Shown here: piece after piece, positions 6,705 through 64,000 of the stretch
Layout: every line of letters starts with the position of its first letter
Position numbering within the stretch: position 1 is the stretch's first letter
Assembly (NCBI GenBank): GCA_964517135.1
Contig: CAZFBA010000003.1
Coordinates: forward strand, 140,863-204,862
Direction of reading: 5' to 3'
From: an uncultured Gammaproteobacteria bacterium
GTDB taxonomy: Bacteria; Cyanobacteriota; Vampirovibrionia; JBFMGH01
Length of the DNA: 64,000 nucleotides
Position numbers and translations under genes: made by a program
Notes under the pieces: model-generated
What the model was told of the DNA's origin: nothing
Seen by the model: only the letters and a program-made list of their open reading frames with translations
Database searches by the model: none

Positions 6705-6997
6705 AACACTATTCAGATGAAATAAATAAGCAAATAAACCATTTATAAAAATTTTAAAAGTGAAGATATGGATTAAACGAGCCGATTGGCCTGAGCTTTC
6801 AAGGCATAACTTTTCACCGGAATAAATCCACTTCGATAGCTCTGAATTCAGTTGCCTTTTGAGGGCAATCTGATATTATGACGTTTATTATACTAAACGA
6901 CATAAAAAATTAAACAATTCTAAAAGTGCCCTATATTTTCTGAAATCTGATTACTTATGACGTTGATTATATAAGAAAGATCTCTGAATAATTTAAA

Positions 6998-7066
6998 AGT
7001 TCACAGATTCAAGAAATTAGTGTCGATATTGCTGGAATCATTAATTTCTTAATTAATCAGAGGTTC
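6998..7066. repeat. intergenic repeat R1, copy 1 (second copy at 27788..27850)
   Basis: Shared block agttcWcagattcaagaaWttRgtg...gctggaatcattaatNNctt(W)attaatcagaggttc, about 85% identical between the two loci. Confidence 0.7.
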
Positions 7067-7200
7067 CAAGAGCTATTCTGAAAGTTTTTTTAACGTTTTT
7101 GAAAAAATTTAAAATTTATGCTTAAATATTAAAAATGCCATAAAAATAAGCCCATCTTATCTCTTCATCCACTAATACCTTCATCAACGGAGATTTAGCA

Positions 7201-14000: not shown

Positions 14001-17000
14001 CCACCACAGTTTTCAATGATATTTGATCCCACACAAGATAGAGTTCTTGTAGGAGAGGATGTTACTGTTGCTGTAACAGCAAATCCGCACGTTAAAGATA
14101 GTCTTATCGATTATCGCTGGGTAGAACCCACCAGCAGAAAAGAAATCAGTAATGGCAAAATTTCTTTTAATCCAAAAGATACTAAAACAGTCAATCTACA
14201 CGTCATAGCACGTGTTCCGCACTACGGAGATGTAATAGATGACAATATAAAAGATCAGTTTACTCCTGGAGAACACCTGGTAACAGCACGCCTCATAGGT
14301 CCCAAGTTTGATCAAGACTCTCAAGAATGGAGTACAGCAGACAGAGGACTGGTTACGAAGAAACCAAAACTCGTGACAGGGCAGGCTATACTGGCAGATG
14401 TTACGACACAGGGTATTGAGAAAGAAAATATCAACTACGAATGGAGCTCTAATGAAGGATGCAGCATAGACTCAGTTAGATCAAGTGATGTTGTTACTGT
14501 CAGCAGAAGCACACCGGGTGTATGTACCCTGTCTGTTATAGCCAGAAATAAAGATAAAAACAAACTCGGAAGTGACGAAATTAGTTTCAGTATAGAAGAA
14601 CAAGATTCAGGATTAATAACTCCGCCTGATGACAAAACAAAAGAAGATGACTCCAGGCAAAAACAGGAGCAGGAAGAAGAAAAGCAACGTCAAAATGAAC
14701 AAAAACAACAGGAAGAAAAGAAAAAAGAAGCAAATGAAGCTATAAAAGCCGCTGAAGAAGAGGCAGCTAAAGGCAATTTTGAAGAAGCTGTCAGGCAGGC
14801 TGATAAAGCTGCCGAACTGGATCCTGATAATACTACAATAACAGAAACATTAATTGCTATAAAAGAAAAACAGAAAGAAACTTCTATTAGGATAGAAGAA
14901 ATTGAGGATCACATCAAAAACGAAGATTTTGAAGAGGCAAAAAAAGAAATTGCACAAGTAGAAAGCAATTTGCCGGGCAGCTCTGTTTCAAAAGACCTGA
15001 AAGAAAAGCTCTCAACGGCAAAAAATAGCTTTATACAGAAATCAACTGAAAATTCAAAAGCTAATATTAAAAAAGGTCAGCTAGAAGAAGCTATTAAAAG
15101 TCTGGAAAAAGCAAGCCAGCTTGACCCTGATAATAAGGAACTTAAAGACCTTTTAACCAAAACCAGGCAGGATAAACAGAAAATTTCCGGGTTAAATGAG
15201 CAGTTCCAAAAAGCTATGAACGAAGGAGATTATGTTAAGGCTGATAAAATACTAAAGGAAATGAAGACAATCAGTCATTATGATCCTGAAGTTCAGTCAG
15301 CAAATACTTCTTTAAGCAAACAATCATTCACTAAGCGTGCTGAATTGACCAATGAACTAAATAATATTAATAAGCTGGCTGGCCAAGGTAATATAGAACA
15401 GGCTATATCGAAGGCAGAAACACTTCTTACAGAAGCTCAAAAAGTAAACTATGGTGAAGGAATTACGGCTGATGCCAGAAGCCTGTTAAATGATCTTAAA
15501 AATAAAAAATCTATGTGCGATAGATACATAGCTGAAGCTGAAAGACTAATAGCAGAAGGCTATTATGATAATGCTAAAACATATTTAGACAGTGCAAGAA
15601 CAGCTTTACCAAAATATAAACCTGTTTTAGACCTGGAAGCAAAACTGAACGAGATATTTAATAAGAGAAATGCAATATTAGCAAAGCAAAAAGAGCTGAT
15701 TCAACAGGCCAATGATGAAATTCGTATCTGCAACTATGATCAGGCTGCAGACCTTGCAAATCAAGCTAAAGCCCTGAACCCTGATAATAAGGATATTGAA
15801 ATAGCAGCCTATAATGTTAATAATAAGCACACAATTTTCATGCAGGATGTAGACAGGGCAAGATTATTATTTGATAGAGGTGATATTGATCTTGCCAAAA
15901 AGGAATTGACCAAGCATGCTTCTTATTGTTCTGATAACAGTGCTTATATTGCTGTCAACGATATGATAGATAACTATTATCAGTCTAAAAATAATGAGTT
16001 AGCAGCTAAAATAGCTGAACTTAAAGCATTATTGAATGCCAGAGAGTATACAAAAGTTTCTGATCTCGCAAAAGAGGTCAGAAGTCAATATTCTCCTATC
16101 GGGCAGCAGCAACTGGATATAAATGAACTGGAATCTCAGGCAATTAAGAAACTAAGCAATAAAAAAGGAGCCATAAATTACTTTAATATAGCTCAGACAC
16201 ACTTTATACAGTATAACTATGAAGGCTGCCTCAAGCAATTAGACATACTTGATAACCAGTATCCTGATTGCTGGGAACCTTCAGATGAATGGCCTGACCG
16301 TATAGCTGCTCTGAGAGCTGATGCCAGAGAAAAATTAAACAGGGTTAACATTTTGACCCCACAGGTTAAAAAAGCTGTTGAAAGCAGCAATTTAACCCTA
16401 AATGACCTTAAAAAAGCCTATGAGCAAAGTTTAGAACTATGTAGTTTAAGCCCAAATGATCTTAACTATAGTTCATACAGAAATACACTTCAACTTAAAC
16501 TTTCTCAGGCAGAGCAAAGATCCAGTCAGGAAATTGCTAAAGCCTACAGTGAATTTAAAAAAGCTGAGGATGCTTACAATCTGAATAAATTAGGTGAGGC
16601 TGTCAGGATATTCGGAGAAACTTTTGAGAAATATGACAGCATTCTGGATAAAAATGACCCTCAATATAAGCATTATAAAGCAGCAGCACAAAATGCTCTA
16701 TCTGCTTATGATTCTTATGAAAAGTTTACACGTGATTACAATGATGTATTGAGTTCTTTTGAGGGAGAATTTGATATTAAAAAACTGAATAAAAACTTTC
16801 TGAAAAGGTTACGAGAAGCCATATACACTATAATAACTATCTCACCGAATAAACAGCTTGCCAGACAAACTTTTGGAAATCAATTAGAAACAAGTGCAAA
16901 TCAGTTTGAAAATCTGATGAAACAACAGATTGATCAGTGTAAAATAGCACCGCTAAGCAAAACAAAGAATGAGATTATTGATATATGTACGCTGGCAAAC

Positions 17001-18248
17001 CAGTTTGACCCGGATGACAATGAAGTACAAAACATCTTAAAACGAGCACGCTCAACAACAGATAGTTACACAACATCAGCTACTTCAAAGCCTTCAACAC
17101 CTTCTGTATATTCTCCACCATCAGAAACAAAAATATCTGATAATGGAAATATTGCAGGCTGCGGATTTACAGATACAGCCAGGTTTGCAATACAAAGACC
17201 AAGTGCTGTAAACAAAATAGAAGTATGGTATAAATGGGAGGAGAATCAAACCTCTCTACCATACCTGTTTCACGAACCTTCAGGGAATGTGGTTCGAGGA
17301 GTATTCACCAGAACAGGCTGTGACCCTTACCAGAAGAGCTGGTGCACAGGTTCTGACAACTTGAATAAAGTGCTTCAACCCGGCAATTATGCTGTTACAG
17401 TTCAACCAGGAAGGATCTGTCAGAATTCAGGTACCGGGGGCAACGGCACCATAAGAGTATACGCAGGGCCATTTACGCAGAAAAAACCTGATAGTTATGT
17501 TCCTCCTGTTGCTTCATCTCAAGCAAAAGCTTCTACCCCCTATACTCAAACTTCTGGCGCACCTTTTGATGGTCATTACAGGGGTACATGTAGAATTTAC
17601 AGCGCAACAGGAAACTGTACTATAACCCTTGACATCAAAAACAATTCTGTAAGTGGCGCTATCAACGCTACCATTGAAGGTGATAACGTAACAGGAAGAT
17701 TTTCAGGTAAAGTAACTCCGCCCGGTCCTCAGTACAGCCAGGCATCAGCTCCTGTTAATGCAACTATTACCAGTGGTACAATAAAGGACAATACACTTAA
17801 TACTACGGTAAGCTTTACAGGTAAACTTAAAGGTACTGTCTATACCAAAATTAATAAGGCCAGTGGAGATATAAGCATAATTGTTAGCGGGTCATCAGGT
17901 GGGCCTAAAGGAGAATGGCAGGTATTTAAACAGGGAACTTCTGTATCCACTGCTACAAGTAAACCTGTTCAATCTGCACCAAAGCAAATATCAGTTATTT
18001 TTCAAAATTATTCATCAATGCCGGTTCATTTCTACGCTGCAAACGGAAGCTGTGCACCTAACAACAAAGTATTATCAGGAGGAAGAAAACAGCTTAACCT
18101 TAAAGCATCTTCTATGGCAACATCTTTACACATAGGCAGAAATGGTCAAACAATAGGCACAATTAATTTACCGTTAACCGGTCTGTCTAATGGCCAGCAA
18201 GTCTATTTAATACTGGATAAAAACGGCAGGTTTTACCGATCGAGGTAG
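11094..18248 (+). CDS. giant (2384 aa) secreted multidomain protein: N-terminal papain-like/C39-like cysteine peptidase domain, central spaced TPR-like and coiled-coil region, Ser/Thr/Gly-rich beta-type C-terminal region
   Basis: AGGAG SD and signal peptide (MKMIKFLYVLVILTLVIITGTTASFSQSA). Peptidase_C39-like catalytic motifs (YYMQDNGPDCWAASLLM with Cys; SGHCLVIVGYDGDNTFYVNDP with His). Repeated TPR-type A..LDPDN/LNPDN/FDPDD signatures at roughly regular spacing between residues 1250 and 1990. Lys/Glu/Gln low-complexity tract around 14.64-14.76 kb. Confidence 0.85.
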   Translation: MKMIKFLYVLVILTLVIITGTTASFSQSARKILEVPYYMQDNGPDCWAASLLMITSAVSPKTDNNILKVVQNAGEQDGIATRSIEGHSGFIAEATRRTGIAPRTTTYWSGTNTVSSIAGHIKRIIDNNRPVMFCSTNALGSSTSGHCLVIVGYDGDNTFYVNDPIGYANNINQRRPYSKIFTSNASYAVVEIPKDMSANRNLVSARIINDAITFIKPKTSSSNTTSISYKLHRTNPDTYVFIDDSGSPVKSIASGYDVLSLEEGSAFLLANSSNSSKTVKITVEIQRKDKSKKLKTITMFKTLLSSTNTNLGNRLSDKLSIYELRDKNNTVDCEMVFTFSDTDTNKIYHKDTFNFKLEPDTTEVKLKAEQKQDNLYKLEVTSDNLPDQIKLCYTVKHSNIKPDEPPCTTDNPFEYRFVREGYYSVSVKVYQLVRTRLLEKQYETKEFLFGEAETRLRVDKEVNIKYSEKDGEYSFEATSNIPFNTAEWKIKDFNTGQITALNDNTATITHKFTADGYYDITVLTKDPKDKPLAECTERIEVKGAQTTDQIDEAFKNRDYKTILKLISGNKNAEQVKKGVEYLHTIADEFLTKDKALLEKFVKLQREDYHTFQQTYEKYDLEKKQLSLDNKNGKNNEAIASLNKCLDSLYKAREEQKTKIEDSIKAINEAINALDEYYSKINPDDDITKELPQVYRFDLSKNIKSKLEFDPDKTLEAYDYKALCIDDSATDDDNDVKVTLKATKKNAKANERVSLTAKIENAPCSGNALKLSWSNNAAGISGFDGVFVASTPGSYSPAVSASCNGKSIGSSSISIKVTGGATGQIIGLEENQVFFGSEKLIKLQTDLIKPAEVDNSCKNNPDNPFCVDTTHSGTIKPVNTGNTEKIFIPDPDNEDIVEPEEFPYLVRWDSNRNLTFDPQEIQGYYNANFNTRVTFDRIENPVKIWAEILQYKDGSYETIGESDLIEIEVIPPQFSMIFDPTQDRVLVGEDVTVAVTANPHVKDSLIDYRWVEPTSRKEISNGKISFNPKDTKTVNLHVIARVPHYGDVIDDNIKDQFTPGEHLVTARLIGPKFDQDSQEWSTADRGLVTKKPKLVTGQAILADVTTQGIEKENINYEWSSNEGCSIDSVRSSDVVTVSRSTPGVCTLSVIARNKDKNKLGSDEISFSIEEQDSGLITPPDDKTKEDDSRQKQEQEEEKQRQNEQKQQEEKKKEANEAIKAAEEEAAKGNFEEAVRQADKAAELDPDNTTITETLIAIKEKQKETSIRIEEIEDHIKNEDFEEAKKEIAQVESNLPGSSVSKDLKEKLSTAKNSFIQKSTENSKANIKKGQLEEAIKSLEKASQLDPDNKELKDLLTKTRQDKQKISGLNEQFQKAMNEGDYVKADKILKEMKTISHYDPEVQSANTSLSKQSFTKRAELTNELNNINKLAGQGNIEQAISKAETLLTEAQKVNYGEGITADARSLLNDLKNKKSMCDRYIAEAERLIAEGYYDNAKTYLDSARTALPKYKPVLDLEAKLNEIFNKRNAILAKQKELIQQANDEIRICNYDQAADLANQAKALNPDNKDIEIAAYNVNNKHTIFMQDVDRARLLFDRGDIDLAKKELTKHASYCSDNSAYIAVNDMIDNYYQSKNNELAAKIAELKALLNAREYTKVSDLAKEVRSQYSPIGQQQLDINELESQAIKKLSNKKGAINYFNIAQTHFIQYNYEGCLKQLDILDNQYPDCWEPSDEWPDRIAALRADAREKLNRVNILTPQVKKAVESSNLTLNDLKKAYEQSLELCSLSPNDLNYSSYRNTLQLKLSQAEQRSSQEIAKAYSEFKKAEDAYNLNKLGEAVRIFGETFEKYDSILDKNDPQYKHYKAAAQNALSAYDSYEKFTRDYNDVLSSFEGEFDIKKLNKNFLKRLREAIYTIITISPNKQLARQTFGNQLETSANQFENLMKQQIDQCKIAPLSKTKNEIIDICTLANQFDPDDNEVQNILKRARSTTDSYTTSATSKPSTPSVYSPPSETKISDNGNIAGCGFTDTARFAIQRPSAVNKIEVWYKWEENQTSLPYLFHEPSGNVVRGVFTRTGCDPYQKSWCTGSDNLNKVLQPGNYAVTVQPGRICQNSGTGGNGTIRVYAGPFTQKKPDSYVPPVASSQAKASTPYTQTSGAPFDGHYRGTCRIYSATGNCTITLDIKNNSVSGAINATIEGDNVTGRFSGKVTPPGPQYSQASAPVNATITSGTIKDNTLNTTVSFTGKLKGTVYTKINKASGDISIIVSGSSGGPKGEWQVFKQGTSVSTATSKPVQSAPKQISVIFQNYSSMPVHFYAANGSCAPNNKVLSGGRKQLNLKASSMATSLHIGRNGQTIGTINLPLTGLSNGQQVYLILDKNGRFYRSR

Positions 18249-18945: not shown

Positions 18946-19422
18946 TTGAAAAATACTGATATCAGAAGAATTTTACACTTATCGGGTCTGAGCCTGATAG
19001 AAGTACTAATATCATTGCTGTTACTATCGGTTGTAGCAGCATTCGTTGCTCTTTCTATCCCTACATCTGCGGGTCTTTCAACTGCTACTGATGATATGGA
19101 AATTACTACGGCACTGGCACAGAAATACATTGAAGATGTCAAAGTTGCTTATACTAACGATACACAAAAGTTTAAAGATCTTCAAAATGGTACTATTAGT
19201 TCGACTGAGCCTATAACAATTGAATCAAAACATACTAATAACAATGAATATTCTTTAACGGCAAACACACAACAACTGGGCTTCGTTGACATAAATGGAG
19301 AAACTGTTTTAAGCCTTTTTGAGCTCACTGTTACCGTTGCCCCTATTGCAAATGGTTCTCCTGATTTAGACTCTAGCCAGGCGGTCACTATAACAGCAAC
19401 CGTCAGAAGAGGTAGTAATTGA
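18946..19422 (+). CDS. prepilin-type N-terminal cleavage/methylation domain protein (minor pilin/pseudopilin)
   Basis: Leader ending in G followed by LSLIEVLISLLLLSVVAAF, the canonical G|xxxxE prepilin peptidase site with Glu at +5. TTG start downstream of a TATAAT box. Overlaps the next gene by 4 nt. Confidence 0.7.
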   Translation: MKNTDIRRILHLSGLSLIEVLISLLLLSVVAAFVALSIPTSAGLSTATDDMEITTALAQKYIEDVKVAYTNDTQKFKDLQNGTISSTEPITIESKHTNNNEYSLTANTQQLGFVDINGETVLSLFELTVTVAPIANGSPDLDSSQAVTITATVRRGSN

Positions 19423-20138
19423 GAAACAACAATGGTTTAAACCTTCTTGAGATATTGATAACAATGGTAATTGTTGCTGTCATCTTTTTACCTATGATTG
19501 ACATGCTTAATACTGCATTTGTGGCTGAATATAAAAACCGTATGAACGTTCAGGCTAAAGAAGCAAGAGAAAATGCTTTGAGCAGAATGACTTCAATACT
19601 TAAAGAAGCTTCTCGCATTGCTGATGGGCCTGTTACCATTAAAACTGAAAAAGGAACCCATTCTATTTCTTCTGGAAATATGGCTGTCATTGCTTATGTA
19701 CCGGTCTATGATAAATATACTCACGAGGTCAGCCAGAGCGGAGGACAAACTGAGTTTAATGGCTTCGCTTATGCCCTTATTCCTGAAACTGATTACTTTG
19801 ATAACGGTACTAGCGGAAAATACGTTATGGTTGAAGCCAGTATCAATACTTATTGCACACCTTCAGAAACTTCTGATTTTAAACCTGATAGTGATTGCGT
19901 TACAGACTGGTCTTCAGGGCAGACAAATGTTTTGTTTGAAGGGGCTATGCCTGCACTGATGCCTGTTTATGACTCTCCTTTTTCACTAAGCTCTTCTAAT
20001 GATGTTGATTATGACAATATTGAAGTAGCTTTTGGTGTTAAAGATGGTATTGTATATTACCCATCAACAAGTGGAACCAGCTTAACAGAAGATAAAATTC
20101 AATCTATAAATATATTTTGCAGAAGTGTAACTTTTTAA
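19419..20138 (+). CDS. prepilin-type N-terminal cleavage/methylation domain protein (minor pilin/pseudopilin)
   Basis: MRNNNG|LNLLEILITMVIVAVIF: short basic leader, Gly at -1, Glu at +5; TTG start with a GAGGT SD; translationally coupled to the previous gene. Confidence 0.75.
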   Translation: MRNNNGLNLLEILITMVIVAVIFLPMIDMLNTAFVAEYKNRMNVQAKEARENALSRMTSILKEASRIADGPVTIKTEKGTHSISSGNMAVIAYVPVYDKYTHEVSQSGGQTEFNGFAYALIPETDYFDNGTSGKYVMVEASINTYCTPSETSDFKPDSDCVTDWSSGQTNVLFEGAMPALMPVYDSPFSLSSSNDVDYDNIEVAFGVKDGIVYYPSTSGTSLTEDKIQSINIFCRSVTF

Positions 20139-20158
20139 TCATAAAGAGAGGAAAGAGT

Positions 20159-21997
20159 ATGAACAAAAACATGGGTTCAACGCTTTTAATCGTCTTGTTT
20201 ATAGCACTTGTTGCTCTGGCAATATCTATTTCAATGATGCAATTGACGACTTCAAAAACCACTATGGCAGTCAATAACAAATATGCACTGCAAGCTTATT
20301 ATGCTGCTGAAGCAGGCATGAATAAAGCTATACTTGAACTTACTAATTATGCAGGTAATCTTCAAACTGTTACAAATGCTGACCTCAATAACCTTGCTGA
20401 CGAAAACACAAAAGCTGCAATGGGTTCCAGTAACGATATTGAGTATTATGTTGAGCTTCAGAATCAATCTGCTGACCAGATTACTGTTAGTGCTACGGGA
20501 GAATATAAAGGCTTTCGCAAGCGACTGATAAGCCGCCTGGAACGTGATACTTCATCTGCTTTTGATTATGGCCTTTTATCTGATAAGTATATTGATATTT
20601 CTACTGGCAAAATAACTTTCCAGATGGATATTCACACCAACTGTGAGATTTTCTCTAACGGTAATGCTGATAACTATGATCGACTGGGTACAACTTCTAC
20701 TGCTACAGCTAGTGCTCTTAACAATTGTCCATCATTTAGCAGCAAAGGTAATAGTCAGGGCAGTGGAGGAAAGGGAAATACAAGGACTAACGAATTCTGG
20801 GGTGTTTATGGTGATGAAGTTGACGTACCGGACGTTAATTTTACCTATTTTTACCAGGAAGCACTTACTGATGGCTGGATCTTTACAGCTCAAGACTTTT
20901 CATCAACTCCCAATCTTCGTGTTCAAACAACAGGTACAACTCTTTCAGCTCTTCCGTTTGAAAGAAAAGAAACTTATATTGCTAATACAAACCTGCCCGC
21001 TAACTATGTTATGAGTATGGCTTCATTAAATATTAATACTAAAACAGCAGGGTTGGCTTCAGTTAATATGCCGGCTAAACCATTTGAAAACATTATTGGT
21101 CTTGCTATCAGACAGTTTGGCCTTTTTGATATAAATAATTATGCATCTCTATATTTTAATAATAACTATGCTAAATATGTTATTGCAGGCGGTCAGGGAA
21201 AAGCAGTAGGCCATGAAGATGATCCCGATCCAACACCTGAGCCTACACCAGAACCCACACCTGATGACAGTATTTTTGAAGACCCGGATGATGTTGATTT
21301 TCCTGATGAAGAAGCTGGAAATGAAGATGATAGCTCGTTTTCTGACGAAAGCAGTGATGATAGCGGCAATAAGGGCAAAGGCGGTGGTAATGATAATAGC
21401 AACAGCGGCAACAATAATGCTTCAGGTGGCCCTGGTGATTATGTTATAACTATTGATGCCGGTGATTATGGTGGAAAAGTTCTCTATATAGACAACCCGG
21501 GAGATGCCAGCAGTATAGAAGTCAACTTTAACGGTATTGTTAAAAATCTTGCTATTATTGTTGAAGGAGATGGTGCACTTATGTTTCATGGTGCAGACCT
21601 TGGCAGTGGAAACCCACATGATGTACCTGATGATCTTGATACTGACGGTAATTTCAAAAGTGGTCACGATCACAGGGGCATAGAAGACTTTATTATTGCA
21701 GCTAATGGCAATATAGAACATTATGGGCGACTGGTTGCCAAATCTGGTCTTTACTGGACCAATGGAGCATACTCTCAAAATGGTCGTGATACATATTTTA
21801 ACTCCAGAATTATTGCTAAAGGCAATATTAGTTCTACCGGTCGTTTTACCATGCTTACTGATGGTAATCTTACCAGCTATGATTTTGCACCTACAATTAT
21901 AAAAGTTATTTCCTGGCGTGAGGTTCCGATTAGTTCAACAAGCAGCTACGGTGCTGGCACTGGCTATTCAGCCGGTGAGAACCAAACAACACAATAA
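20159..21997 (+). CDS. PilX_N-domain type IV pilus minor pilin-like protein with an acidic/Thr-Pro low-complexity linker
   Basis: ATG at 20159 with SD AGAGAGGAAAGAG (the track ORF starting at 20117 is probably over-extended). N-terminus MNKNMGSTLLIVLFIALVALAISISMMQ ... AYYAAEAGMNKAILEL matches the PilX_N pattern. Internal DPDPTPEPTPEPTPDD...SDESSDDSGNKGKGGGNDNSNSGNNN linker. Confidence 0.65.
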   Translation: MNKNMGSTLLIVLFIALVALAISISMMQLTTSKTTMAVNNKYALQAYYAAEAGMNKAILELTNYAGNLQTVTNADLNNLADENTKAAMGSSNDIEYYVELQNQSADQITVSATGEYKGFRKRLISRLERDTSSAFDYGLLSDKYIDISTGKITFQMDIHTNCEIFSNGNADNYDRLGTTSTATASALNNCPSFSSKGNSQGSGGKGNTRTNEFWGVYGDEVDVPDVNFTYFYQEALTDGWIFTAQDFSSTPNLRVQTTGTTLSALPFERKETYIANTNLPANYVMSMASLNINTKTAGLASVNMPAKPFENIIGLAIRQFGLFDINNYASLYFNNNYAKYVIAGGQGKAVGHEDDPDPTPEPTPEPTPDDSIFEDPDDVDFPDEEAGNEDDSSFSDESSDDSGNKGKGGGNDNSNSGNNNASGGPGDYVITIDAGDYGGKVLYIDNPGDASSIEVNFNGIVKNLAIIVEGDGALMFHGADLGSGNPHDVPDDLDTDGNFKSGHDHRGIEDFIIAANGNIEHYGRLVAKSGLYWTNGAYSQNGRDTYFNSRIIAKGNISSTGRFTMLTDGNLTSYDFAPTIIKVISWREVPISSTSSYGAGTGYSAGENQTTQ

Positions 21998-22023
21998 TTT
22001 TACTGGATACATTATAGAAAAAT

Positions 22024-22050
22024 AGCTCCTTTTTTGGGGCTATTTTTTAG
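22024..22050. terminator. possible bidirectional hairpin terminator between convergent genes
   Basis: atagctcc-tttttt-ggggctat followed by a T-run; imperfect stem (one mismatch); lies between the + gene ending at 21997 and the - gene ending at 22040. Confidence 0.35.
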
Positions 22051-22558
22051 TGGCTTGTGGCCTTGGGGTAAAGCATTCATAGAACTCTTTGCGGTGCTGA
22101 TCCTCTGATTCCCAACTTAGGTTGTAAAGTTTAAGCTGGTTTTCCTCATTTATAAAGTATAGATTGAGCAAAACAGTTTGATGTTCATATATAATCGGCT
22201 GAATAGCCTGATAGAAATAGTCTTTTCCTGTGAAAGTATACACAAAGAGACCTTTAAAACCCCGTTTCTCTTTAGGAATAGACTTAACTTCTCCGAGATA
22301 TAGTTCAAGGCAAGAAGGATACTGAAGTAGTTCCCTCTGAATATTCTTATTTTCTGTTATAGCCTTACTGGTCAGGTTTTCATCGGTGAGAAGTTCATAA
22401 AAAGGCTTTTTTTGAAAGTGTTCAAGAGCAAGGTCTGTTTTATGGTCTAAGAGAGCCTTTTGGGGGCTTGTAAGAGTAAATTCCTCACTAATATTAGGGT
22501 TGGGGCAGCAAGCCCCTGTTAAACCTGCAAGCATGAGAGCCAGAAGTAATTTTCTCAA
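22040..22558 (-). CDS. hypothetical lipoprotein
   Basis: TTG start; signal peptide with lipobox (MRKLLLALMLAGLTGAC). Confidence 0.5.
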   Translation of the reverse strand: MRKLLLALMLAGLTGACCPNPNISEEFTLTSPQKALLDHKTDLALEHFQKKPFYELLTDENLTSKAITENKNIQRELLQYPSCLELYLGEVKSIPKEKRGFKGLFVYTFTGKDYFYQAIQPIIYEHQTVLLNLYFINEENQLKLYNLSWESEDQHRKEFYECFTPRPQATKK

Positions 22559-22685: not shown

Positions 22686-22886
22686 ATGTCAAAAAAGGCA
22701 GAATTAAATATGATGAAAGAGCAAAGTTACACTAATATTAATGAAGAATGCCTACTGAAATATTTAAATAATCCTGATAACCTTGGCTTATCTGTTGAAG
22801 TATTAAAAGAGTTATTAAAAGATACTGAAATTAAAGACAAAAAATCCTGTGGTTTATTAGCAAAATACCTGTGGCGTAAAAAATAG
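22686..22886 (+). CDS. hypothetical small protein (66 aa)
   Basis: ATG start; ORF lies in an intergenic context; no motif recognised. Confidence 0.3.
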   Translation: MSKKAELNMMKEQSYTNINEECLLKYLNNPDNLGLSVEVLKELLKDTEIKDKKSCGLLAKYLWRKK

Positions 22887-22960
22887 ATAGTTAATTACAT
22901 ATGTAGGATCAGTGCATAACTTAAAATTTTTTCGATTTTCAAAACCCTTGCCATGGCTAG

Positions 22961-23185
22961 CACTTAATCACAATTGCCCTGCTAGCTTCGTACGCTCACT
23001 CAAGTTTTCGTTCGCTTGAGCTTTTCTGGAGTCATGTTTGCAGAGGTTATAACCCCTTGCTCCCTCGCTAAAGGAGGGTTTCAGTGCGCCGGGGTGCGTG
23101 ACCGCACTGGACTACAATTGCCCTGAAACCTGACCCCTGAGGGTGGGTGGGCGGGCCCTGAGCTGGCGAAGCCAGCCTCCTGCTT
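22961..23185 (+). repeat. GC-rich hairpin-dense element, copy A (candidate structured ncRNA or repeat family); diverged, shortened copy B at 41148..41278 in reverse orientation
   Basis: Roughly 55% GC island in an AT-rich genome. Multiple perfect hairpins (ctcaag/cttgag; ccctc-gctaaag-gaggg; cagtgcg...cgcactg; ctggc-gaa-gccag). Internal direct repeat acaattgccctg (22971 and 23115). Copy B shares the 5' block caattgccctg...gctcactcaagt...agtcatgtttgcagaggt and the 3' block acccctgRgggtgggcggg. Confidence 0.6.
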
Positions 23186-23460
23186 TTAATACATGTTCAG
23201 ACAGCACCAGAAAAATTAGCTCTCCTGCAATACCCTCAAAACTATCAGGCCCAGCAGCAATCTGCTAAATAAACCTTTCCCCCAAAATATTGAAATCTAT
23301 TACTCTGCATAGCAAACACAAACACCAGCCATATACCCTAAAAAAAATTAACCTGTAATGATATGTTTATCTATTTACATTGTGATAATATTATTTAAGA
23401 CAAGTGAATAAACTATTGAGCAAAAAGACTTATTATGAATGCAGGCGAGGTATATAACCG

Positions 23461-26246: not shown

Positions 26247-27762
26247 GAGCAAGTTTTCATTACTGAAAAATCTCTTAACACCATCTATTCTGGATTCTAT
26301 ATTTGTTGTTCTGCTAATATTTATAATCTTTTATGACCAGGGTGCTCAAATATTAAAGGATGGTGATACTGGTTTTCATATTATGACGGGCCGGTATATA
26401 CTTGATAATCTTCAATTTCCTTCTCATGATGTTTTTTCTTATACCTCTTATGGCAAAGAATGGGTGGCTTTTTCATGGGCTACTGGCGTTCTTTTTGCCC
26501 TGATGGATAACCTAGCTGGCCTTAATGGCGTGGTTTTATTAAACCTGCTTGTTTTACTGGCTACCTTTTATATCATCTATCGACTGTTAATGCGCTGTAA
26601 TATTAACTTTTATCTCATGGTCTTTTCGATGGTTTGCCTGATTAGCCTGACTTCTATACACTGGCTCGCCAGACCGCACCTTTTTACAATACTTTTTATG
26701 GCGTTGCTATTTTATATGCTTGAAATCGCAAGAGAAAACAAGAAGATTTATTACTTTATACCTTTAATCATACTGCTATGGGTTAATTTTCATCCTGGTT
26801 TTATTTCGGGATTCTTTCTTTTAGGTGCATATATTGCAGGAAATATCATAGAATACCTGATTGCTAAAGCTGAAGATAGAAAAAGACATCTCCATACAGC
26901 ACGTATTATAAGTATGACAATGCTGGCATCTGTTTTTGTGACAATACTTAACCCATATGGATTTAAGTTATATGCTTATATATATAATACTCTAACTTCC
27001 TACTGGATTGTAAATGCAACAAGAGAATATCTTTCACCAAATTTTCATAATAACTTCTCTGTTATTGTCTACGGTCTGGTTGCTGGAATACTGATAATGG
27101 CCGGACTCTTATCACAAAGAAGGGTTCTTGACATACCCAAAATTTTAATATTGCTTCTATGGATGCATCTTTCACTATTTGCATCAAGAAATATAGCTCT
27201 CTTTGGTATTGTTGCTATACCCTGTATGGCTCTAATGGTACAAAATGTCATTGATTCTCTGGATCTTCAATCACTGAAAGATAAGTCAGAAAAACTTCTT
27301 GTTTCTGAGCGATCACTAAAATGTCACTTTTGGCCTGCTTTGATCTTTATTATTACTGTTATTATTATCCTTAATAATGGCTATTTTTTAGATAAAAAAA
27401 TTCTGGCCTGTGATTTTTCACCAGAAAAAATGCCTGTTAATGCAATGAAATTCATTGAAAAGAACCCCGTAAAAGGCAATATACTCAACCACGATAACTG
27501 GGGAGGCTATCTTATTTATCGATATCCTGATATAAAGGTTTTTATGGATGGTCGCCTTGATATGTATCAGCAAAAATTTCTTGATGATTATCAGCGGGTG
27601 ATTACTCTAAAGCCTGGCTGGCAGGAAGTTTTAATACAACACAACATTGACTGGGCACTGATAAAAAGAAATACACTTTTACGCAATTTCTTGCTACATC
27701 ACCCGGACTGGTTTAAGGTCTATGAAGATAATGTAACAACCATATTTATTTTGAATAAATAG
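26239..27762 (+). CDS. polytopic membrane protein, putative GT-C-fold glycosyltransferase (GT39/ArnT/PMT-like); family call uncertain
   Basis: Around 12 predicted TM helices; a first periplasmic loop with conserved acidic/aromatic residues, then a large C-terminal soluble domain; distant paralog of 42085..43512. Confidence 0.5.
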   Translation: MSESKFSLLKNLLTPSILDSIFVVLLIFIIFYDQGAQILKDGDTGFHIMTGRYILDNLQFPSHDVFSYTSYGKEWVAFSWATGVLFALMDNLAGLNGVVLLNLLVLLATFYIIYRLLMRCNINFYLMVFSMVCLISLTSIHWLARPHLFTILFMALLFYMLEIARENKKIYYFIPLIILLWVNFHPGFISGFFLLGAYIAGNIIEYLIAKAEDRKRHLHTARIISMTMLASVFVTILNPYGFKLYAYIYNTLTSYWIVNATREYLSPNFHNNFSVIVYGLVAGILIMAGLLSQRRVLDIPKILILLLWMHLSLFASRNIALFGIVAIPCMALMVQNVIDSLDLQSLKDKSEKLLVSERSLKCHFWPALIFIITVIIILNNGYFLDKKILACDFSPEKMPVNAMKFIEKNPVKGNILNHDNWGGYLIYRYPDIKVFMDGRLDMYQQKFLDDYQRVITLKPGWQEVLIQHNIDWALIKRNTLLRNFLLHHPDWFKVYEDNVTTIFILNK

Positions 27763-27787
27763 CTCTTGAGTCTCAGAATAACTTGTA

Positions 27788-27850
27788 AGTTCTCAGATTC
27801 AAGAATTTGGTGCTGCTGGAATCATTAATACCTTTATTAATCAGAGGTTC
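27788..27850. repeat. intergenic repeat R1, copy 2
   Basis: See the 6998..7066 entry; this copy lies between convergent genes. Confidence 0.7.
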
Positions 27851-28141: not shown

Positions 28142-28354
28142 CAAAGTCTGTTAATTAACCCAAATTATTCATCAATTTATAGTTTATTTATTCTAGAGGG
28201 TTTAAAAGTGCGGCGATGCCACACTTTTAAACCCGACCCACTTACTTCTGTTTCCTGCGATGTTTTAACACTGTGTTAAAAAGATGTATTCACTAGACGT
28301 CAGTTTCTATAACTGTTTAAGGTCAATTTATTAATAGTTTATGAATTAAATGGG
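28142..28354 (+). repeat. intergenic repeat R2, copy 1 (about 210 bp) with a perfect 13-bp palindrome gggtttaaaagtg-N11-cacttttaaaccc (28198..28234)
   Basis: About 90% identical to the reverse complement of 37929..38140; the central hairpin is conserved in both copies. Confidence 0.75.
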
Positions 28355-28633
28355 CTAATTAAAATTTTCAAAATTAGCTATTTTTTACCATAAATCAATT
28401 TTTTTATATTAGTTCTGGCTATAACCTTTTGTCGATAATATTGTTATAATGATTATATCAAGTAGACCCACAGAAATTTGCATAGGACTATTATCCTCTC
28501 AAGGAGAGGATTTTACTTTATATTATATACAAATGATATGCTTTTAATACCTGCAAACCGTCTTAAGAAAATACATACAGATGTTTGCAAACCAGACTCC
28601 TCGGGTTAAAATAATATAGGATAGTGTATAACT

Positions 28634-28675
28634 GGGATTTTGAAAAACGAAAAAGTTTCAAGTTATGCACCAGTC
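28634..28675 (-). repeat. intergenic repeat module R4 (reverse orientation); related copy at 22908..22948 and split remnants at 47077..47098 and 47237..47261
   Basis: The reverse complement gactggtgcataacttgaaactttttcgtttttcaaaatccc aligns to 22908 tcagtgcataacttaaaattttttcgattttcaaaaccc. Confidence 0.6.
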
Positions 28676-37617: not shown

Positions 37618-37928
37618 CCTCCAGTTGCCTGTCTACAAGATAAATAATGACAACTAATACCGCTTAAGGGCATCAGTACTACTAAGTGTGCTATTGAATC
37701 TATCTTATTTCTAATATAACAAACAATTCTCAGTAATGCCTGATTCTACAGCACTACTTTTTTTTCGGGGGGAAAAATTAAGTGATATTAGTAATTTTCA
37801 GCATTTATGTTTTGAAATGGTTGTAACAAAGCTTAAAAGAATTAACCTTGCTGAACCTGTATTTAAGGGTATTAACAATTCTTGCTATTTATAGTTTGTT
37901 ATTTCTGGCTATTCATCTGCTTTTTTAA

Positions 37929-38140
37929 CCCATTTAATTCATAAACTATTAATAAATTGACCTGAAACAGTTATAGAAATTGATGTTTAGCGAATACATA
38001 TTTTTAACAAAGTGTCAAAACATTGCAGGGAACAGAAGTTAGGGGGTCGGGTTTAAAAGTGCGGCAGCGCCACACTTTTAAACCCTCTAGAATAAATAGA
38101 CTATAAATTGATGAATAATGCGGGTTAATTCTGTTTTGTC
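37929..38140 (-). repeat. intergenic repeat R2, copy 2 (inverted relative to copy 1); palindrome at 38049..38085
   Basis: Reverse complement of 28142..28354 at about 90% identity; the 13-bp arms are identical, the 11-nt loop differs. Confidence 0.75.
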
Positions 38141-41053: not shown

Positions 41054-41147
41054 TCAACAAATAACTTTATTACATTGAAGATTTTATCAGTTAAGCGAAA
41101 AATATAAAAGAAGGTGGTTTAAAATGATATTTCTTTTCAGCCTATCA

Positions 41148-41278
41148 GTAGCCCTCCCGCCCACCCCAGGGGTTAGTTTTACAGGTAAATTGGTATAATA
41201 CCTCTGCAAACATGACTTCATACCAGCCTGAGCGTGTGAAGACTTGAGTGAGTGCAGGCAGCTGTCAGGGCAATTGAA
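41148..41278 (-). repeat. GC-rich element, copy B (shortened homolog of 22961..23185)
   Basis: The reverse complement aligns to copy A: tcaattgccctgacagctgcctgcactcactcaagtcttc...gaagtcatgtttgcagaggtattatacc...acccctggggtgggcgggaggg. Confidence 0.6.
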
Positions 41279-41287
41279 AAAAACGGC

Positions 41288-41320
41288 AAAAAAAAACGGC
41301 TTTTTGCCGTTAAATGAGCC
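41288..41320 (-). terminator. Rho-independent terminator (minus strand) downstream of the 109-aa gene
   Basis: Read on the minus strand: cggc-aaaaa-gccg followed by ttttttttt, plus a second gccg/T-run. Confidence 0.5.
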
Positions 41321-41377: not shown

Positions 41378-41707
41378 TTAAGCGAATGTTTTGAATGACA
41401 TATCGATGTTCTTGTCGATAACTTTTTGAACTGCTGATATTTCGGTTTGAAGAGCTTGTTGCTGAGTGTCAACCCTTCTTAACTGAAGTTCAAGAGCTTT
41501 GTCAATCTGCTGAAGAGCTTCTACTCTGGTTTGAAGAGTTGCTGCGTCCTGTGAATCGGGGTCTAAATTTGTTTGAGCGTTGAAAAGCATTCCGACGGCG
41601 TTGGCTATTTTAAGCCTTTCCTGGTTAATTCTTTGTCCTTGCATTTCAACATCTGATTTTCTGGCGGTTAAAACTAAGAATCTTGCTTGTGATGCTGCTA
41701 AACCCAT
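41378..41707 (-). CDS. hypothetical small coiled-coil protein (109 aa)
   Basis: ATG start; helical/heptad character; a faint resemblance to the flagellin N-terminus was considered and not supported. Confidence 0.45.
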   Translation of the reverse strand: MGLAASQARFLVLTARKSDVEMQGQRINQERLKIANAVGMLFNAQTNLDPDSQDAATLQTRVEALQQIDKALELQLRRVDTQQQALQTEISAVQKVIDKNIDMSFKTFA

Positions 41708-47024: not shown

Positions 47025-47138
47025 AAAAATTAACCCTATTTTTTACCTTACCCAGCTTTATTTTAACAATAAAATAGACCAGTGCATAATTAATACTGTT
47101 CCTTGAATGAAATGAAATATTCCAGCAACTTGGTTACA

Positions 47139-47171
47139 GGTGTTTTTGCCTGAATAGCAAGCAAAAACACC
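47139..47171. repeat. REP-like hairpin ggtgtttttgc-N11-gcaaaaacacc (family members at 63911..63943, 28198..28234, 38049..38085, 57554..57593)
   Basis: Perfect 11-bp inverted arms with an 11-nt loop; identical arms recur at 63911..63943 with a different loop. Confidence 0.65.
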
Positions 47172-63943: not shown

Positions 63944-64000
63944 CTACTGAATTCCATCAGCATATATTAATTATTTACGTGGAATGGTATAAATCATTTG

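What the first reader, a model, noticed from the sequence alone, without database searches (positions are those of the whole stretch)
22961..23185. GC-rich, hairpin-dense element of about 220 bp in two diverged copies (22961..23185 on + and 41148..41278 on -): candidate structured ncRNA family or novel mobile or regulatory element
In this AT-rich genome the 22.96-23.19 kb spacer is strikingly GC-rich. It is packed with perfect stems: ctcaag/cttgag, ccctc-N7-gaggg, cagtgcg-N14-cgcactg, ctggc-gaa-gccag and gggccc. It also contains an internal 12-nt direct repeat, acaattgccctg, at 22971 and 23115. A second copy in reverse orientation between thiL and a small gene (41148..41278) retains the 5' third (caattgccctg...gctcactcaagt...agtcatgtttgcagaggt) and the 3' G-rich block (acccctgRgggtgggcggg), but lacks the central roughly 80 nt. 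It is conserved, structured and multi-copy. It is GC-rich against the genome trend and non-coding. Its two copies sit upstream of different gene types: a LuxR-type response regulator, and thiL in antisense. This profile fits a small RNA or retro-element-like ncRNA family, not a cis-riboswitch. I could not match it to tmRNA, RNase P, SRP RNA, or the TPP or cobalamin riboswitch consensus sequences.
Basis: seen in the sequence. Interest (0 to 1): 0.75.

Follow-up and report, generated by a model that had tools for sequence, protein, structure and literature searches.

The report
Mosaic GC-rich intergenic repeat with G-quadruplex
The two "copies" are real, but they are two members of a species-specific family of patchwork intergenic repeats that always end in a perfect G-quadruplex motif; this is a new member of a known kind of bacterial repeat, and nothing shows a discrete structured RNA gene.

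Summary
22971-23047(+) and 41200-41276(-) are 78% identical over 77 nt. Both are followed by ACCCCTG(R)GGGTGGGNGGGNGGG, and GC reaches 0.5-0.6 against 0.36 for the window.

The roughly 220-nt unit is not one element. It is a patchwork of short modules, here called A, B, C, D and hairpins. These modules recur in the same orientation but in different orders and combinations. There are at least six GC-rich islands in about 110 kb of the same genome. Five islands carry module A, and all five end in the same G-rich block.

That block is a canonical G-quadruplex motif, G3N1G3N1G3N1G3. The two copies hold the only two such motifs in the 64-kb window (0.05 expected). The G-tracts never vary, while two of the three loop positions do.

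Evidence against a structured RNA family:
- No Rfam family matches.
- Folding energies are no better than shuffled sequence.
- There is no conserved promoter or terminator.
- Only one small hairpin shows compensatory changes.
- Copy 2 is sense-upstream of thiL, not antisense, and lies between the upstream terminator and a promoter-like site.
- Relatives with 64-68% identical ThiL keep thiL-ispD synteny but lack the element.

Best reading: a lineage-specific dispersed mosaic repeat, like BOX or BIME elements, with a G-quadruplex/hairpin module. A strand-specific regulatory role is possible but unproven.

The parts
22907..22947 (-). Module P. This is a truncated right arm of a separate 'P-G4-P' element in reverse orientation (GGGTTTTGAAAATCGAAAAAATTTTAAGTTATGCACTGATC). 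It abuts the island on its 5' side.
   Evidence: It matches window 28638-28670, L100 19030-19069 and L008 5250-5289 at about 90% (I3, 32, 57). The full element was read in L100 and L111.
22970..22981 (+). C-tail, ACAATTGCCCTG. This is the 3' end of module C. It lies 12 nt upstream of module A, with the same spacing in copy 2 and in L106.
   Evidence: alignment of the five A copies.
22992..23056 (+). Module A: GCTCACTCAAG-N10-CTTGAGC hairpin followed by the invariant AGTCATGTTTGCAGAGG block.
   Evidence: 92-97% identical to L007 2009-2066, L008 2513-2455 and L106 13003-13092; 78% to copy 2.
23057..23084 (+). Module B: CCCTC-GCTAAAG-GAGGG hairpin containing a Shine-Dalgarno-like AAAGGAGGG.
   Evidence: It recurs in L008 (twice), in L009/L106 (at least three times) and in island I6a.
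23078..23110 (+). Hairpin GGTTTCAGTGCG...CGCACTG. L106 has the same hairpin with a longer stem (CAGTGCGCCGGGC-GCA-GCCCGGCGCACTG).
   Evidence: (L106 13224-13250 is 100% identical over 27 nt).
23089..23126 (+). Module C: GGTGCGTGACCGCACTGGACTACAATTGCCCTG. In L106 the same module lies upstream of module A, not downstream of it.
   Evidence: (L009 13404-13432, 97%).
23126..23157 (+). Module D core: AAACCTGACCCCTGA followed by the G-quadruplex motif GGGTGGGTGGGCGGG (23141-23155) and CC.
23158..23182 (+). GAA-loop hairpin GCTGGC-GAA-GCCAGC. In L007 and L106 it reads GCGGCC-GAA-GGCCGC, which gives two compensatory pairs.
23183..23289 (+). D-long tail, rich in C and A and poor in G (GC skew down to -0.6). 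It is shared with L007 up to 23268.
   Evidence: (L007 2079-2215, 91% over 137 nt). It does not look coding.
41266..41276 (-). Copy 2 C-tail, CAATTGCCCTG. It starts directly after the T-run of the upstream gene's terminator.
41189..41253 (-). Copy 2 module A'. It is diverged: the CTCAAG/CTTGAG hairpin is lost, but AGTCATGTTTGCAGAGGT is intact.
   Evidence: (I2).
41134..41180 (-). Copy 2 module D core: AACCCCTG plus the G-quadruplex motif GGGGTGGGCGGGAGGG (41152-41167). It is followed by CTACTGATAGGCTGAAAAGAAA, which resembles the start of module F as seen in L008.
41282..41311 (-). Flank, not part of the repeat: intrinsic terminator of the 109-aa gene (41378-41707, -). The island begins at the end of its T-run.
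41081..41108 (-). Flank, not part of the repeat: sigma-70-like site (TTTATA-16-TAAAAT with an upstream TG) between the island and the thiL start.
   Evidence: This is a consensus match only.

Best explanation
Both copies belong to a lineage-specific family of dispersed, modular (mosaic) extragenic repeats. The family is comparable to pneumococcal BOX elements or enterobacterial BIMEs.

**Anatomy.** An island has a 5' module A: a hairpin plus the invariant AGTCATGTTTGCAGAGG. Then comes a variable set of small GC-rich hairpin modules (B, C, E and others). The 3' module D has the form CTGAAA-N4-ACCCCTG(R)-G3N1G3N1G3N1G3. It is followed either by a GAA-loop hairpin or by module F.

**Shown:**
- The islands are multi-copy.
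- The modules are always co-oriented, but their order and content are shuffled.
- The copies are young (91-97% identical).
- They lie in true intergenic gaps. Two islands start exactly at a terminator T-run, and both window copies lie upstream of promoter-like sites.
- The element is absent at the orthologous thiL site in relatives.
- The G-tracts are invariant while the loops vary.

**Inferred:**
- The islands spread and are reshuffled by recombination or template switching between short shared junction sequences. Alternatively, an unidentified enzyme acting in trans moves them.
- They persist because terminator-to-promoter gaps tolerate them.
- The G-quadruplex/hairpin module is the part under selection. 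It may be the structure recognised during spread. It may instead be a strand-specific punctuation element on the non-template strand upstream of genes.
For: **Copies and mosaic structure**
- Statistics for the two window copies.
- More copies were found in loci assigned to the same genome. L008 overlaps L100, which comes from the window's own contig ERZ27252303:k141_174454. L106 comes from the same assembly. L007 shares a 79-nt stretch that is 98.7% identical to window 63916-63994.
- There are six GC-rich repeat islands in about 110 kb.
- Every inter-island match is plus/plus, but the modules occur in different orders.
- All five islands with module A end in the D core on the same strand. The distance from A to the G-quadruplex motif is 20-230 nt.
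- Independent assemblies break inside the element. Five Logan contigs end at window 23133-23148, and L003 and L004 end inside copy 2.

**G-quadruplex motif**
- The window holds only two canonical motifs, both inside the copies. Order-1 Markov simulations gave a mean of 0.05, and 0 of 300 had two or more.
- All 12 G positions are invariant in the five copies, while two of the three loop positions vary.
- With the quadruplex term switched on, the motif is part of the minimum-energy fold of all five copies, under both RNA and DNA parameters.

**Context**
- Relatives with 68% and 64% identical ThiL keep thiL-ispD but have no module and no G-quadruplex motif upstream.
- Profiles of A and D find nothing in four relatives' loci.
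- Nothing was found in viral contigs, plasmids or phages, and nothing in GTDB genomes for the A pattern.
- Precedents exist: modular BOX repeats confined to one species and judged parasitic (PMC3049150), and multi-copy intergenic quadruplex/hairpin motifs in E. coli (PMC5100583).
Against: - No terminal inverted repeats, target-site duplications or empty sites were found, so mobility is inferred and not shown.
- No transposase or RAYT-like family appeared among the window ORFs scanned or among the precomputed Pfam hits in the flanks. Less than 5% of a typical genome was examined.
- There is an orientation bias. Four of five A-D islands, and 10 of 11 G-quadruplex motifs in this lineage's loci, point toward the start of a co-oriented gene. 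That hints at function or at selection on strand, which a purely neutral repeat would not predict.
- The sample is small: five copies, apparently from one species.
Confidence: 0.62

Rival explanations
1. The module is a cis-acting, strand-specific regulatory or insulator element. The G-quadruplex, which competes with the ACCCCT/GGGG and GGGCCC hairpin alternatives, sits on the non-template strand between an upstream terminator and the downstream promoter. It could modulate transcription of the next gene through supercoiling or R-loop-dependent folding, or by blocking read-through. If transcribed, it could act as an RNA quadruplex in the leader. The repeat family would then be a vehicle that distributes this module.
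For: - Ten of 11 canonical G-quadruplex motifs found in this genome and in relative L111 lie on the sense strand 100-560 nt upstream of a gene start. Motif positions come; gene tables come.
- In the L007 island, two motifs on opposite strands each point toward one of two divergent genes.
- The G-tracts are invariant while the loops vary.
- A hairpin-versus-quadruplex alternative is predicted in every copy.
- A published survey reports bacterial G-quadruplex motifs enriched in intergenic regions near gene starts (PMC12563890, abstract). The E. coli HPG motifs were proposed to act as a quadruplex-hairpin-duplex switch (PMC5100583).
Against: - The downstream genes are unrelated: a response regulator, thiL, a 362-aa and a 457-aa protein.
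- The distance to the start codon varies from 99 to 561 nt.
- The element is absent at the orthologous thiL site in relatives.
- One copy faces the 3' end of a convergent gene.
- The motif counts are not independent, because several share one island.
- The bias could simply follow gene strand or replication strand.
- There are no expression data.
Confidence: 0.2
2. The islands are genes for a family of small trans-acting RNAs. Module F might supply a promoter (TATAAAT), with transcripts running through C-A-B to the G-quadruplex and GAA hairpin. The two window copies would then be 5'-truncated paralogues.
For: - The modules are co-oriented, and A-to-D polarity is conserved in all five copies.
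- The GAA hairpin has two compensatory pairs.
- Module F contains a TATAAAT about 45 nt upstream of module C in L007, L008 and L106.
Against: - No Rfam match, even at permissive thresholds.
- MFE z-scores are not significant on either strand.
- Neither window copy has module F or any promoter-like site on its own strand within or just upstream of the element.
- The sequence 3' of the GAA hairpin differs between copies, and L106 has no U-tract there.
- The first hairpin is lost in copy 2.
- Internal content varies by more than 200 nt between copies.
Confidence: 0.08
3. The islands are decayed ends or non-autonomous derivatives of a larger mobile element. Candidates are IS200/IS605-type elements with subterminal hairpins, a terminator-targeting group II intron, or a nested pile of several miniature inverted-repeat elements.
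For: - Two islands begin exactly at the T-run of an intrinsic terminator.
- GTGCGTGA, which resembles a group II intron 5' end, recurs at module junctions.
- There are hairpins near both ends.
- Island W1 abuts a truncated arm of another small element that has clear 14-16-nt inverted ends.
Against: - Rfam's group II intron and other ribozyme models give nothing at E<=10 in the window or E<=0.1 in L007-L009.
- No reverse transcriptase or transposase appears nearby.
- No shared tetranucleotide precedes module A, and no common 3' end exists.
- The only end-to-end complementarity is the 5-bp GCTCA/TGAGC, seen in three copies.
Confidence: 0.1

Closest known systems
BOX elements of Streptococcus pneumoniae (boxA-boxB(n)-boxC; Croucher et al. 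2011, PMC3049150)
   Same: - Both are small interspersed intergenic repeats built from modules, with constant terminal modules and a variable middle.
- The size ranges overlap (67-637 bp for BOX; about 140-600 nt here).
- Both fold into stem-loops.
- Both are confined to one species or its closest kin and absent from relatives.
   Different: - There is no sequence relationship.
- BOX elements have terminal inverted repeats and target-site duplications; neither was found here.
- Here the internal modules are several different units, not repeats of one boxB.
- The islands here are GC-rich in an AT-rich genome.
- They carry a G-quadruplex motif.
REP sequences and BIMEs of enterobacteria and pseudomonads (PMC2817692, PMC3116915)
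   Same: Both are extragenic, GC-rich, hairpin-forming, multi-copy and arranged in mosaic composites. Both often lie just downstream of genes or terminators.
   Different: - REPs are single palindromes of about 20-40 nt with a conserved GTAG-type head. In BIMEs they alternate in orientation and are linked to RAYT transposases.
- Here every module is co-oriented, no GTAG head is present, and no RAYT was seen in the sequence available.
E. coli HPG1/HPG2 conserved G-quadruplex-hairpin-duplex motifs (Kaplan et al. 2016, PMC5100583)
   Same: Both are multi-copy (16 and 7 copies in E. coli), conserved and strictly intergenic G-quadruplex motifs. In both, C-rich flanks allow an alternative hairpin, and most copies lie between tandem genes.
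   Different: - The sequence and loop lengths differ. Here all three loops are 1 nt.
- The motif here is the 3' module of a larger mosaic repeat.
- The host genome is AT-rich, so the motif is far less expected by chance.
Neisseria gonorrhoeae pilE G-quadruplex with its cis-acting small RNA (Cahoon and Seifert 2013, PMC3547852; PMC13463697)
   Same: The quadruplex has very short loops (G3TG3TTG3TG3 in Neisseria, from my own knowledge). It lies upstream of a gene on a defined strand. Copy 1 lies about 400 nt from a cluster of N-methyl-motif, pilin-like genes.
   Different: - The Neisseria element is a single locus tied to pilE/pilS gene conversion.
- Here the motif occurs at many unrelated loci (thiL, a response regulator, toxin-antitoxin cassettes).
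- No silent pilin copies or adjacent small-RNA promoter were identified.
Miniature inverted-repeat transposable elements of bacteria (reviewed in PMC3184786)
   Same: Both are small, non-coding, multi-copy, intergenic, structured and lineage-restricted.
   Different: The defining terminal inverted repeats and target-site duplications were not found for the A-D islands. The neighbouring P-G4-P element does have such inverted ends.

Membership tests
Any Rfam RNA family (tmRNA, RNase P, SRP, riboswitches, group II intron, HEARO and others) | Covariance-model match at or near the family's gathering score | tested here: not met
   No hit at gathering thresholds in the whole window. Only chance-level hits at E<=10 around both copies, for example snoR16 at 16.9 bits against a threshold of 45. 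Nothing at E<=0.1 in L007-L009. No tRNA or tmRNA was found.
Structured ncRNA (generic) | Folding energy better than composition-matched shuffles | tested here: not met
   z = -0.15 and -1.34 for copy 1 (+ and - strands); z = +0.86 and -0.13 for copy 2.
Structured ncRNA (generic) | Compensatory base changes supporting a shared structure across copies | tested here: inconclusive
   Only the 6-bp GAA-loop hairpin shows two compensatory pairs, between W1 and L007/L106. It is absent from copy 2 and L008. The CTCAAG/CTTGAG hairpin is broken in copy 2. There are only five copies, four of them 91-97% identical.
Modular interspersed repeat of the BOX type | Constant terminal modules with a variable number or kind of internal modules, in many copies per genome | tested here: met
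   Module A at the 5' side and the D core at the 3' side occur in all five copies. The internal content spans 20-230 nt and uses different modules. There are six islands in about 110 kb.
Modular interspersed repeat of the BOX type | Terminal inverted repeats and target-site duplication | tested here: inconclusive
   The only complementarity is the 5-bp GCTCA/TGAGC in three copies, extending to 11 of 14 nt in W1 alone. No empty site is available to show a duplication, because all same-species contigs carry the element.
Modular interspersed repeat of the BOX type | Restricted to one species or its close kin, and absent from orthologous sites in relatives | tested here: met
   The thiL upstream regions of L112 and L113 lack it. 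Profiles of A and D find nothing in L110-L113. The A pattern has no match in GTDB representative genomes.
REP/BIME | REP palindromes in alternating orientation with a conserved head tetranucleotide | tested here: not met
   All module matches between islands are plus/plus, apart from self-palindromes. No shared GTAG-type head was seen on reading the copies.
REP/BIME | Associated RAYT (Y1 transposase) gene in the genome | not testable with these tools
   Only about 110 kb of the genome could be reached. No transposase family appeared among the proteins scanned or the precomputed Pfam hits.
Canonical intramolecular G-quadruplex motif | Four runs of at least three G separated by loops of 1-7 nt, more frequent than chance, with the G-runs conserved | tested here: met
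   The motifs are 23141-23155 GGGTGGGTGGGCGGG and 41152-41167(-) GGGGTGGGCGGGAGGG. They are the only two in the window, with 0.05 expected and 0 of 300 simulations reaching two. All 12 G positions are invariant in the five copies, and two of three loop positions vary. The quadruplex is in the predicted minimum-energy fold for both RNA and DNA. Physical folding was not tested.
Group II intron (including ORF-less or truncated copies) | 5' GUGYG, domains V/VI, and an intron-encoded reverse transcriptase | tested here: not met
   GTGCGTGA occurs at some module junctions. However, no Rfam intron model matches, and no reverse transcriptase is present in the flanks.
Neisseria-type pilE G-quadruplex recombination initiator | A single quadruplex upstream of the expressed pilin gene, with an adjacent small-RNA promoter and silent donor copies | tested here: not met
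   The motif occurs at five or more unrelated loci. Only weak N_methyl and PilX_N hits lie near copy 1. No pilin-like repeats were found in the window.
Small protein gene | An open frame conserved with a purifying-selection pattern, and homologues in protein databases | tested here: not met
   ORF 23143-23268 has 6 amino-acid changes from 11 nucleotide changes against L007, with no strong third-position excess. The translated element has no hit among 5.8 billion proteins.

The most novel reading that the evidence does not exclude
The conserved part of the family is a G-quadruplex/hairpin switch, ACCCCTG(R)-G3N1G3N1G3N1G3 flanked by strong GC hairpins. A dispersed repeat would place this switch, strand-specifically, on the non-template strand between terminators and promoters. 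In an AT-rich, uncultured bacterium, possibly related to Melainabacteria, it could act as a genome-wide transcriptional punctuation or insulator. Alternatively, it could be the structure recognised by an unknown mobilisation or recombination machinery. A second, unrelated small element in this genome (P-G4-P) also carries a G-quadruplex core. A relative of roughly genus-level distance carries that element and its own G-quadruplex repeats. This suggests the lineage uses or tolerates quadruplexes in an unusual way.
Probability: 0.15. Interest if true: 0.7.

Novelty: new member of a known kind. Interest (0 to 1): 0.35.

Why it matters
**If it is a selfish or neutral mosaic repeat**
- It mainly explains why assemblies of this organism break at these points.
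- It explains why gene callers produce spurious ORFs there. One example is the 145-aa "gene" called across an island in L106.
- It adds an uncultured, AT-rich lineage to the bacteria known to carry BOX- or BIME-like modular repeats.

**The more interesting aspect is the G-quadruplex**
- A perfect three-tetrad, single-nucleotide-loop motif is kept intact in every copy while its loops drift, in a genome where such motifs are otherwise almost absent.
- It is nearly always on the sense strand upstream of a gene.
- This would be a clean natural system for testing whether bacterial G-quadruplexes are selected structures, and whether they act on transcription or on repeat mobility.
- That question is still largely argued from genome statistics.

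Tried and rejected
**Known RNA families.** Rfam at gathering thresholds on the whole window, and at E<=10 on both copies, gave nothing real. L007-L009 gave nothing either. ARAGORN found no tRNA or tmRNA.

**Well-folded RNA.** The shuffle controls reject this.

**Searches for more copies**
- The A pattern had 0 matches in GTDB genomes.
- In JGI metagenomes it had 3 real matches and 1 chance match; the chance match, L006, lies inside a ribosomal protein L10 gene.
- IMG/VR had 0 matches for the D pattern. The 13 hits to the 16-mer covered the seed only.
- Plasmid and phage blastn found no match.

**Finding copies through spurious ORFs.** Searching 5.8 billion proteins with the translated element found nothing.

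**Small protein gene.** Rejected.

**Other systems considered and rejected**
- Group II intron, retron, diversity-generating retroelement, integron attC and CRISPR readings. No reverse transcriptase, integrase or Cas gene lies next to the copies. There is no Rfam hit and no periodic array. The copies flank ordinary housekeeping genes.
- A TPP riboswitch upstream of thiL: none is present.
- A thiL-specific cis-regulator: the element is absent in relatives that keep the same synteny.

**Sample identifiers.** A literature search for the sample accessions found nothing.

**Taxonomy.** It could not be fixed. SecA is at most 52% identical to any GTDB hit returned (Nitrospirota). ThiL is 53% identical to a "Cyanobacteriota bacterium" MAG and 41-42% to Gastranaerophilales.
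Full report

Yes, with corrections. ACAATTGCCCTG occurs at 22970 and 23114, and its 11-mer core occurs a third time at 41266-41276(-). GC reaches 0.47-0.61 across 22950-23250, against a window mean of 0.36.

The two copies are more than chance. The repeat finder reports 22971-23047 against 41200-41276 as 77 nt at 78% complementarity (I2). The 18-mer AGTCATGTTTGCAGAGGT occurs exactly twice, and 0 of 100 shuffles gave two matches. The G-rich block occurs twice, with 0 expected.

"Hairpin-dense" does not exceed what the composition gives. MFE z-scores against dinucleotide shuffles are -0.15 and -1.34 for the two strands of copy 1, and +0.86 and -0.13 for copy 2.

Copy 2 lies on the minus strand, and so does thiL (40049-41053). 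It is therefore sense-upstream of thiL, not antisense.

**2. Anatomy: a mosaic, not one element**

A pattern scan of JGI metagenomes returned three real relatives (L007, L008, L009) and one chance hit. Look-ups of window proteins show that the window is part of ENA contig ERZ27252303:k141_174454, 274 kb long.

- L008 overlaps the extension of that contig. Its copy therefore lies about 12 kb beyond the window start in the same genome.
- L009 lies in contig k141_245840 of the same assembly, held as L106.
- L007 shares a 79-nt stretch that is 98.7% identical to window 63916-63994. I infer the same species.

BLAST among these loci splits copy 1 into independent modules:

| Module | Window coordinates | Notes |
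|---|---|---|
| P | 22907-22947 | truncated arm of another element |
| C-tail | 22970-22981 | 3' end of module C |
| A | 22992-23056 | hairpin plus invariant block |
| B | 23057-23084 | CCCTC/GAGGG hairpin with a Shine-Dalgarno-like core |
| hairpin | 23078-23110 | longer stem in L106 |
| C | 23089-23126 | in L106 it lies upstream of A |
| D | 23126-23289 | L007 matches 23132-23268 at 91% |

Other islands add modules E, F, G, H and J. Every match between islands is plus/plus, but order and content differ.

In about 110 kb of non-redundant sequence from this genome there are six GC-rich repeat islands (GC 0.47-0.55). There are also several AT-rich repeat families.

Independent assemblies break inside the element. 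Five Logan contigs end at window positions 23133-23148. Two JGI contigs end inside copy 2. That is the behaviour expected of a genomic repeat.

**3. The constant parts**

All five islands with module A end, on the same strand, in a D core of the form (C)TGAAA-N4-AC(C/T)CCTG(R)-GGGTGGGNGGGNGGG-C. The core lies 20 to 230 nt after module A. After it comes one of two things:

- CCTGAGC plus a GAA-loop hairpin, in W1, L007 and L106.
- The start of module F, in copy 2 and L008.

Three islands (W1, copy 2, L106) also share CAATTGC(C/T)CTG exactly 12 variable nucleotides before module A.

**4. The G-quadruplex motif**

The G-rich block is a canonical G-quadruplex motif whose three loops are each a single nucleotide.

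- Scanning both strands of the 64-kb window finds exactly two such motifs, at 23141-23155(+) and 41152-41167(-). They are the two copies.
- Order-1 Markov simulations give a mean of 0.05. None of 300 reached two.
- Across the five copies, all 12 G positions are invariant. The second loop is T, C, T, A, T and the third is C, A, C, C, C.
- With ViennaRNA's quadruplex term switched on, the motif is part of the minimum-energy fold in all five copies, under both RNA and DNA parameters. Without that term, the flanking CCCC and GGGCCC pair with the G-runs, so a hairpin alternative exists. These are predictions, not measurements.

**5. Tests of the RNA-gene reading**

- Rfam has no match at any reasonable threshold.
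- No promoter-like site lies on the element's strand within or just upstream of either window copy. The one sigma-70-like site near copy 2 (41108-41081, minus strand) lies between the element and thiL.
- Copy 2 begins at the last T of the upstream gene's intrinsic terminator. Island I6a in L106 likewise begins at a terminator T-run.
- The sequence after the GAA hairpin differs between copies, and L106 has no U-tract there.
- The GAA hairpin is the only helix with compensatory changes: two pairs between W1 and L007/L106.
- The CTCAAG/CTTGAG hairpin is lost in copy 2.
- The 41-codon ORF at 23143-23268 shows no coding signature. The translated element has no protein homologue.

**6. Context and phylogenetic spread**

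Four of the five A-D islands point toward the start of a co-oriented gene: the response regulator, thiL, a 362-aa gene in L007 and a 457-aa gene in L008. The fifth faces the 3' end of a convergent methyltransferase gene.

I counted every canonical G-quadruplex motif in this genome's loci and in relative L111. Ten of 11 lie on the sense strand 100-560 nt upstream of a gene start (with gene tables). These counts are not independent.

Relatives were reached through ThiL and an aminotransferase. The thiL-ispD pair is conserved in L112 and L113 (68% and 64% ThiL identity), but their thiL upstream regions are AT-rich and carry no module and no G-quadruplex motif. Profiles of A and D find nothing in L110-L113. 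Viral, plasmid and phage collections are negative.

The organism is uncultured. SecA is at most 52% identical to any GTDB hit returned. ThiL is closest to a "Cyanobacteriota bacterium" MAG (53%) and to Gastranaerophilales (41-42%). This is a hint, not an assignment.

**7. What it most likely is and how it works**

The best-supported reading is a young, lineage-specific family of dispersed modular repeats. The islands occupy terminator-to-promoter gaps.

- *Shown:* multi-copy, mosaic, co-oriented modules, absence from relatives, invariant G-tracts.
- *Inferred:* spread and reshuffling happen by recombination or template switching at short shared junctions such as CAATTGCCCTG, GTGCGTGA, GGAGGGTTT and GCACTG. 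Alternatively, an unidentified enzyme acts in trans.
- *Inferred:* the G-quadruplex/hairpin module is the selected part.

I put 0.62 on this. A strand-specific cis-regulatory or insulator role gets 0.2. Derivation from a larger mobile element gets 0.1, and a trans-acting small-RNA family gets 0.08. These readings partly overlap.

**8. Comparison with known systems**

In function, the closest analogues are three:

- Pneumococcal BOX elements. They have constant end modules and a variable middle, are species-restricted, and were judged parasitic although sometimes transcribed (PMC3049150).
- REP/BIME composites (PMC2817692).
- The E. coli HPG1/HPG2 intergenic G-quadruplex-hairpin motifs (PMC5100583).

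Membership fails or is untestable for each family:

- For BOX and miniature inverted-repeat elements, no terminal inverted repeats or target duplications were found.
- For BIMEs, there are no alternating REP orientations and no GTAG head.
- There is no sequence similarity to any of them.
- The Neisseria pilE G-quadruplex (PMC3547852) shares only the short-loop motif and an upstream position.

**9. Verdict**

The feature is real and was correctly noticed. It is a new family of a known kind of bacterial repeat, not a structured RNA family. Interest is moderate.

The conserved, perfectly formed G-quadruplex is the part worth following up. Such motifs are otherwise almost absent from this AT-rich genome, and this one is nearly always on the sense strand upstream of a gene.

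Noticed in passing
L100 18920-19045 (same contig as the window, about 6.5 kb beyond its start; equals L008 5250-5400) and L111 9766-9884; remnant at window 22907-22947: A second small element, 'P-G4-P'. Inverted ends TTCGATTTTCAAAA / TTTTGAAAATCGAA enclose about 85 nt that finish in a G-quadruplex motif: GGGTGGGTGGGATCTGGG in this genome and GGGAGGGTGGGCTGGG in L111. L111 comes from a relative with about 65% amino-acid identity. In both genomes it sits 110-180 nt upstream of a different gene. It has no Rfam match. Window 22907-22947 is a truncated right arm of such an element in reverse orientation, cut at its first CCC where the GC-rich island begins.
   Followed up: partly
window 28153-28358 and 37925-38130: A 206-nt inverted repeat, 91% complementary. 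Its arms lie 9.6 kb apart and bracket the spermidine-synthase-like gene, secA and a release-factor gene. Each arm contains a 37-nt near-perfect hairpin, GGGTTTAAAAGTGCGGC..GCCACACTTTTAAACCC. The right arm continues into an 86-nt direct repeat shared with 47132-47217.
   Followed up: no
window 6795-7069, 27754-27850, 63861-63996; L106 4988-5079, 6624-6870, 8440-8569, 19322-19670: Several AT-rich interspersed repeat families (GC 0.28-0.38) with up to 7 copies in about 110 kb. One is the hairpin GGTGTTTTTGCCCGC..GCGGGCAAAAACACC (window 47139, 63911; L007 2300). The genome is unusually rich in intergenic repeats of several kinds.
   Followed up: no
L007 275-390 and 1862-2010; L008 2520-2660: Module H contains GTCATTCTGAGGGCAAAGCCCGAAGAATC...TCGCTGCGCTCAGGATGAC. 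It yields spurious ORFs such as 'CHPERSEGS...' and 'VILSAAKDL...'. It is absent from the window. From memory, similar sequences turn up as hypothetical proteins in many metagenomes; I did not verify this.
   Followed up: no
L106 11170-11468 and 12812-13318; L007 280-389 and 1539-2330: Small toxin-antitoxin-like cassettes sit between GC-rich repeat islands: HigB with an HTH protein in L106, and a RelE-like 99-aa protein with a MerR-like 190-aa protein in L007. A 145-aa 'gene' called in public annotations (L106 12733-13170) lies entirely on an island and is probably spurious.
   Followed up: no
L111 20215-20700: A relative carries a tandem duplication of a 249-nt unit. The unit contains a terminator-like hairpin, then the hairpin GCTAAGGGCC-TT-GGCCCTTAGC, then 8 nt, then GGGGTGGGCGGGCGGG. 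That G-quadruplex core differs from window copy 2's by one loop base, in otherwise unrelated sequence.
   Followed up: no
window 18946-22558: A cluster of genes with weak N-terminal methylation (pilin-like) and PilX_N signals: 158, 239 and 626 aa on the plus strand, and an unannotated 172-aa gene on the minus strand. It lies just upstream of copy 1. A small 66-aa ORF with no known family (22686-22886) sits between the cluster and the island.
   Followed up: partly
window 11094-18248: A 2384-aa ORF. Its product carries Peptidase_C39_2 and weak Peptidase_C70, PKD and TPR hits in the precomputed annotation of L100.
   Followed up: no
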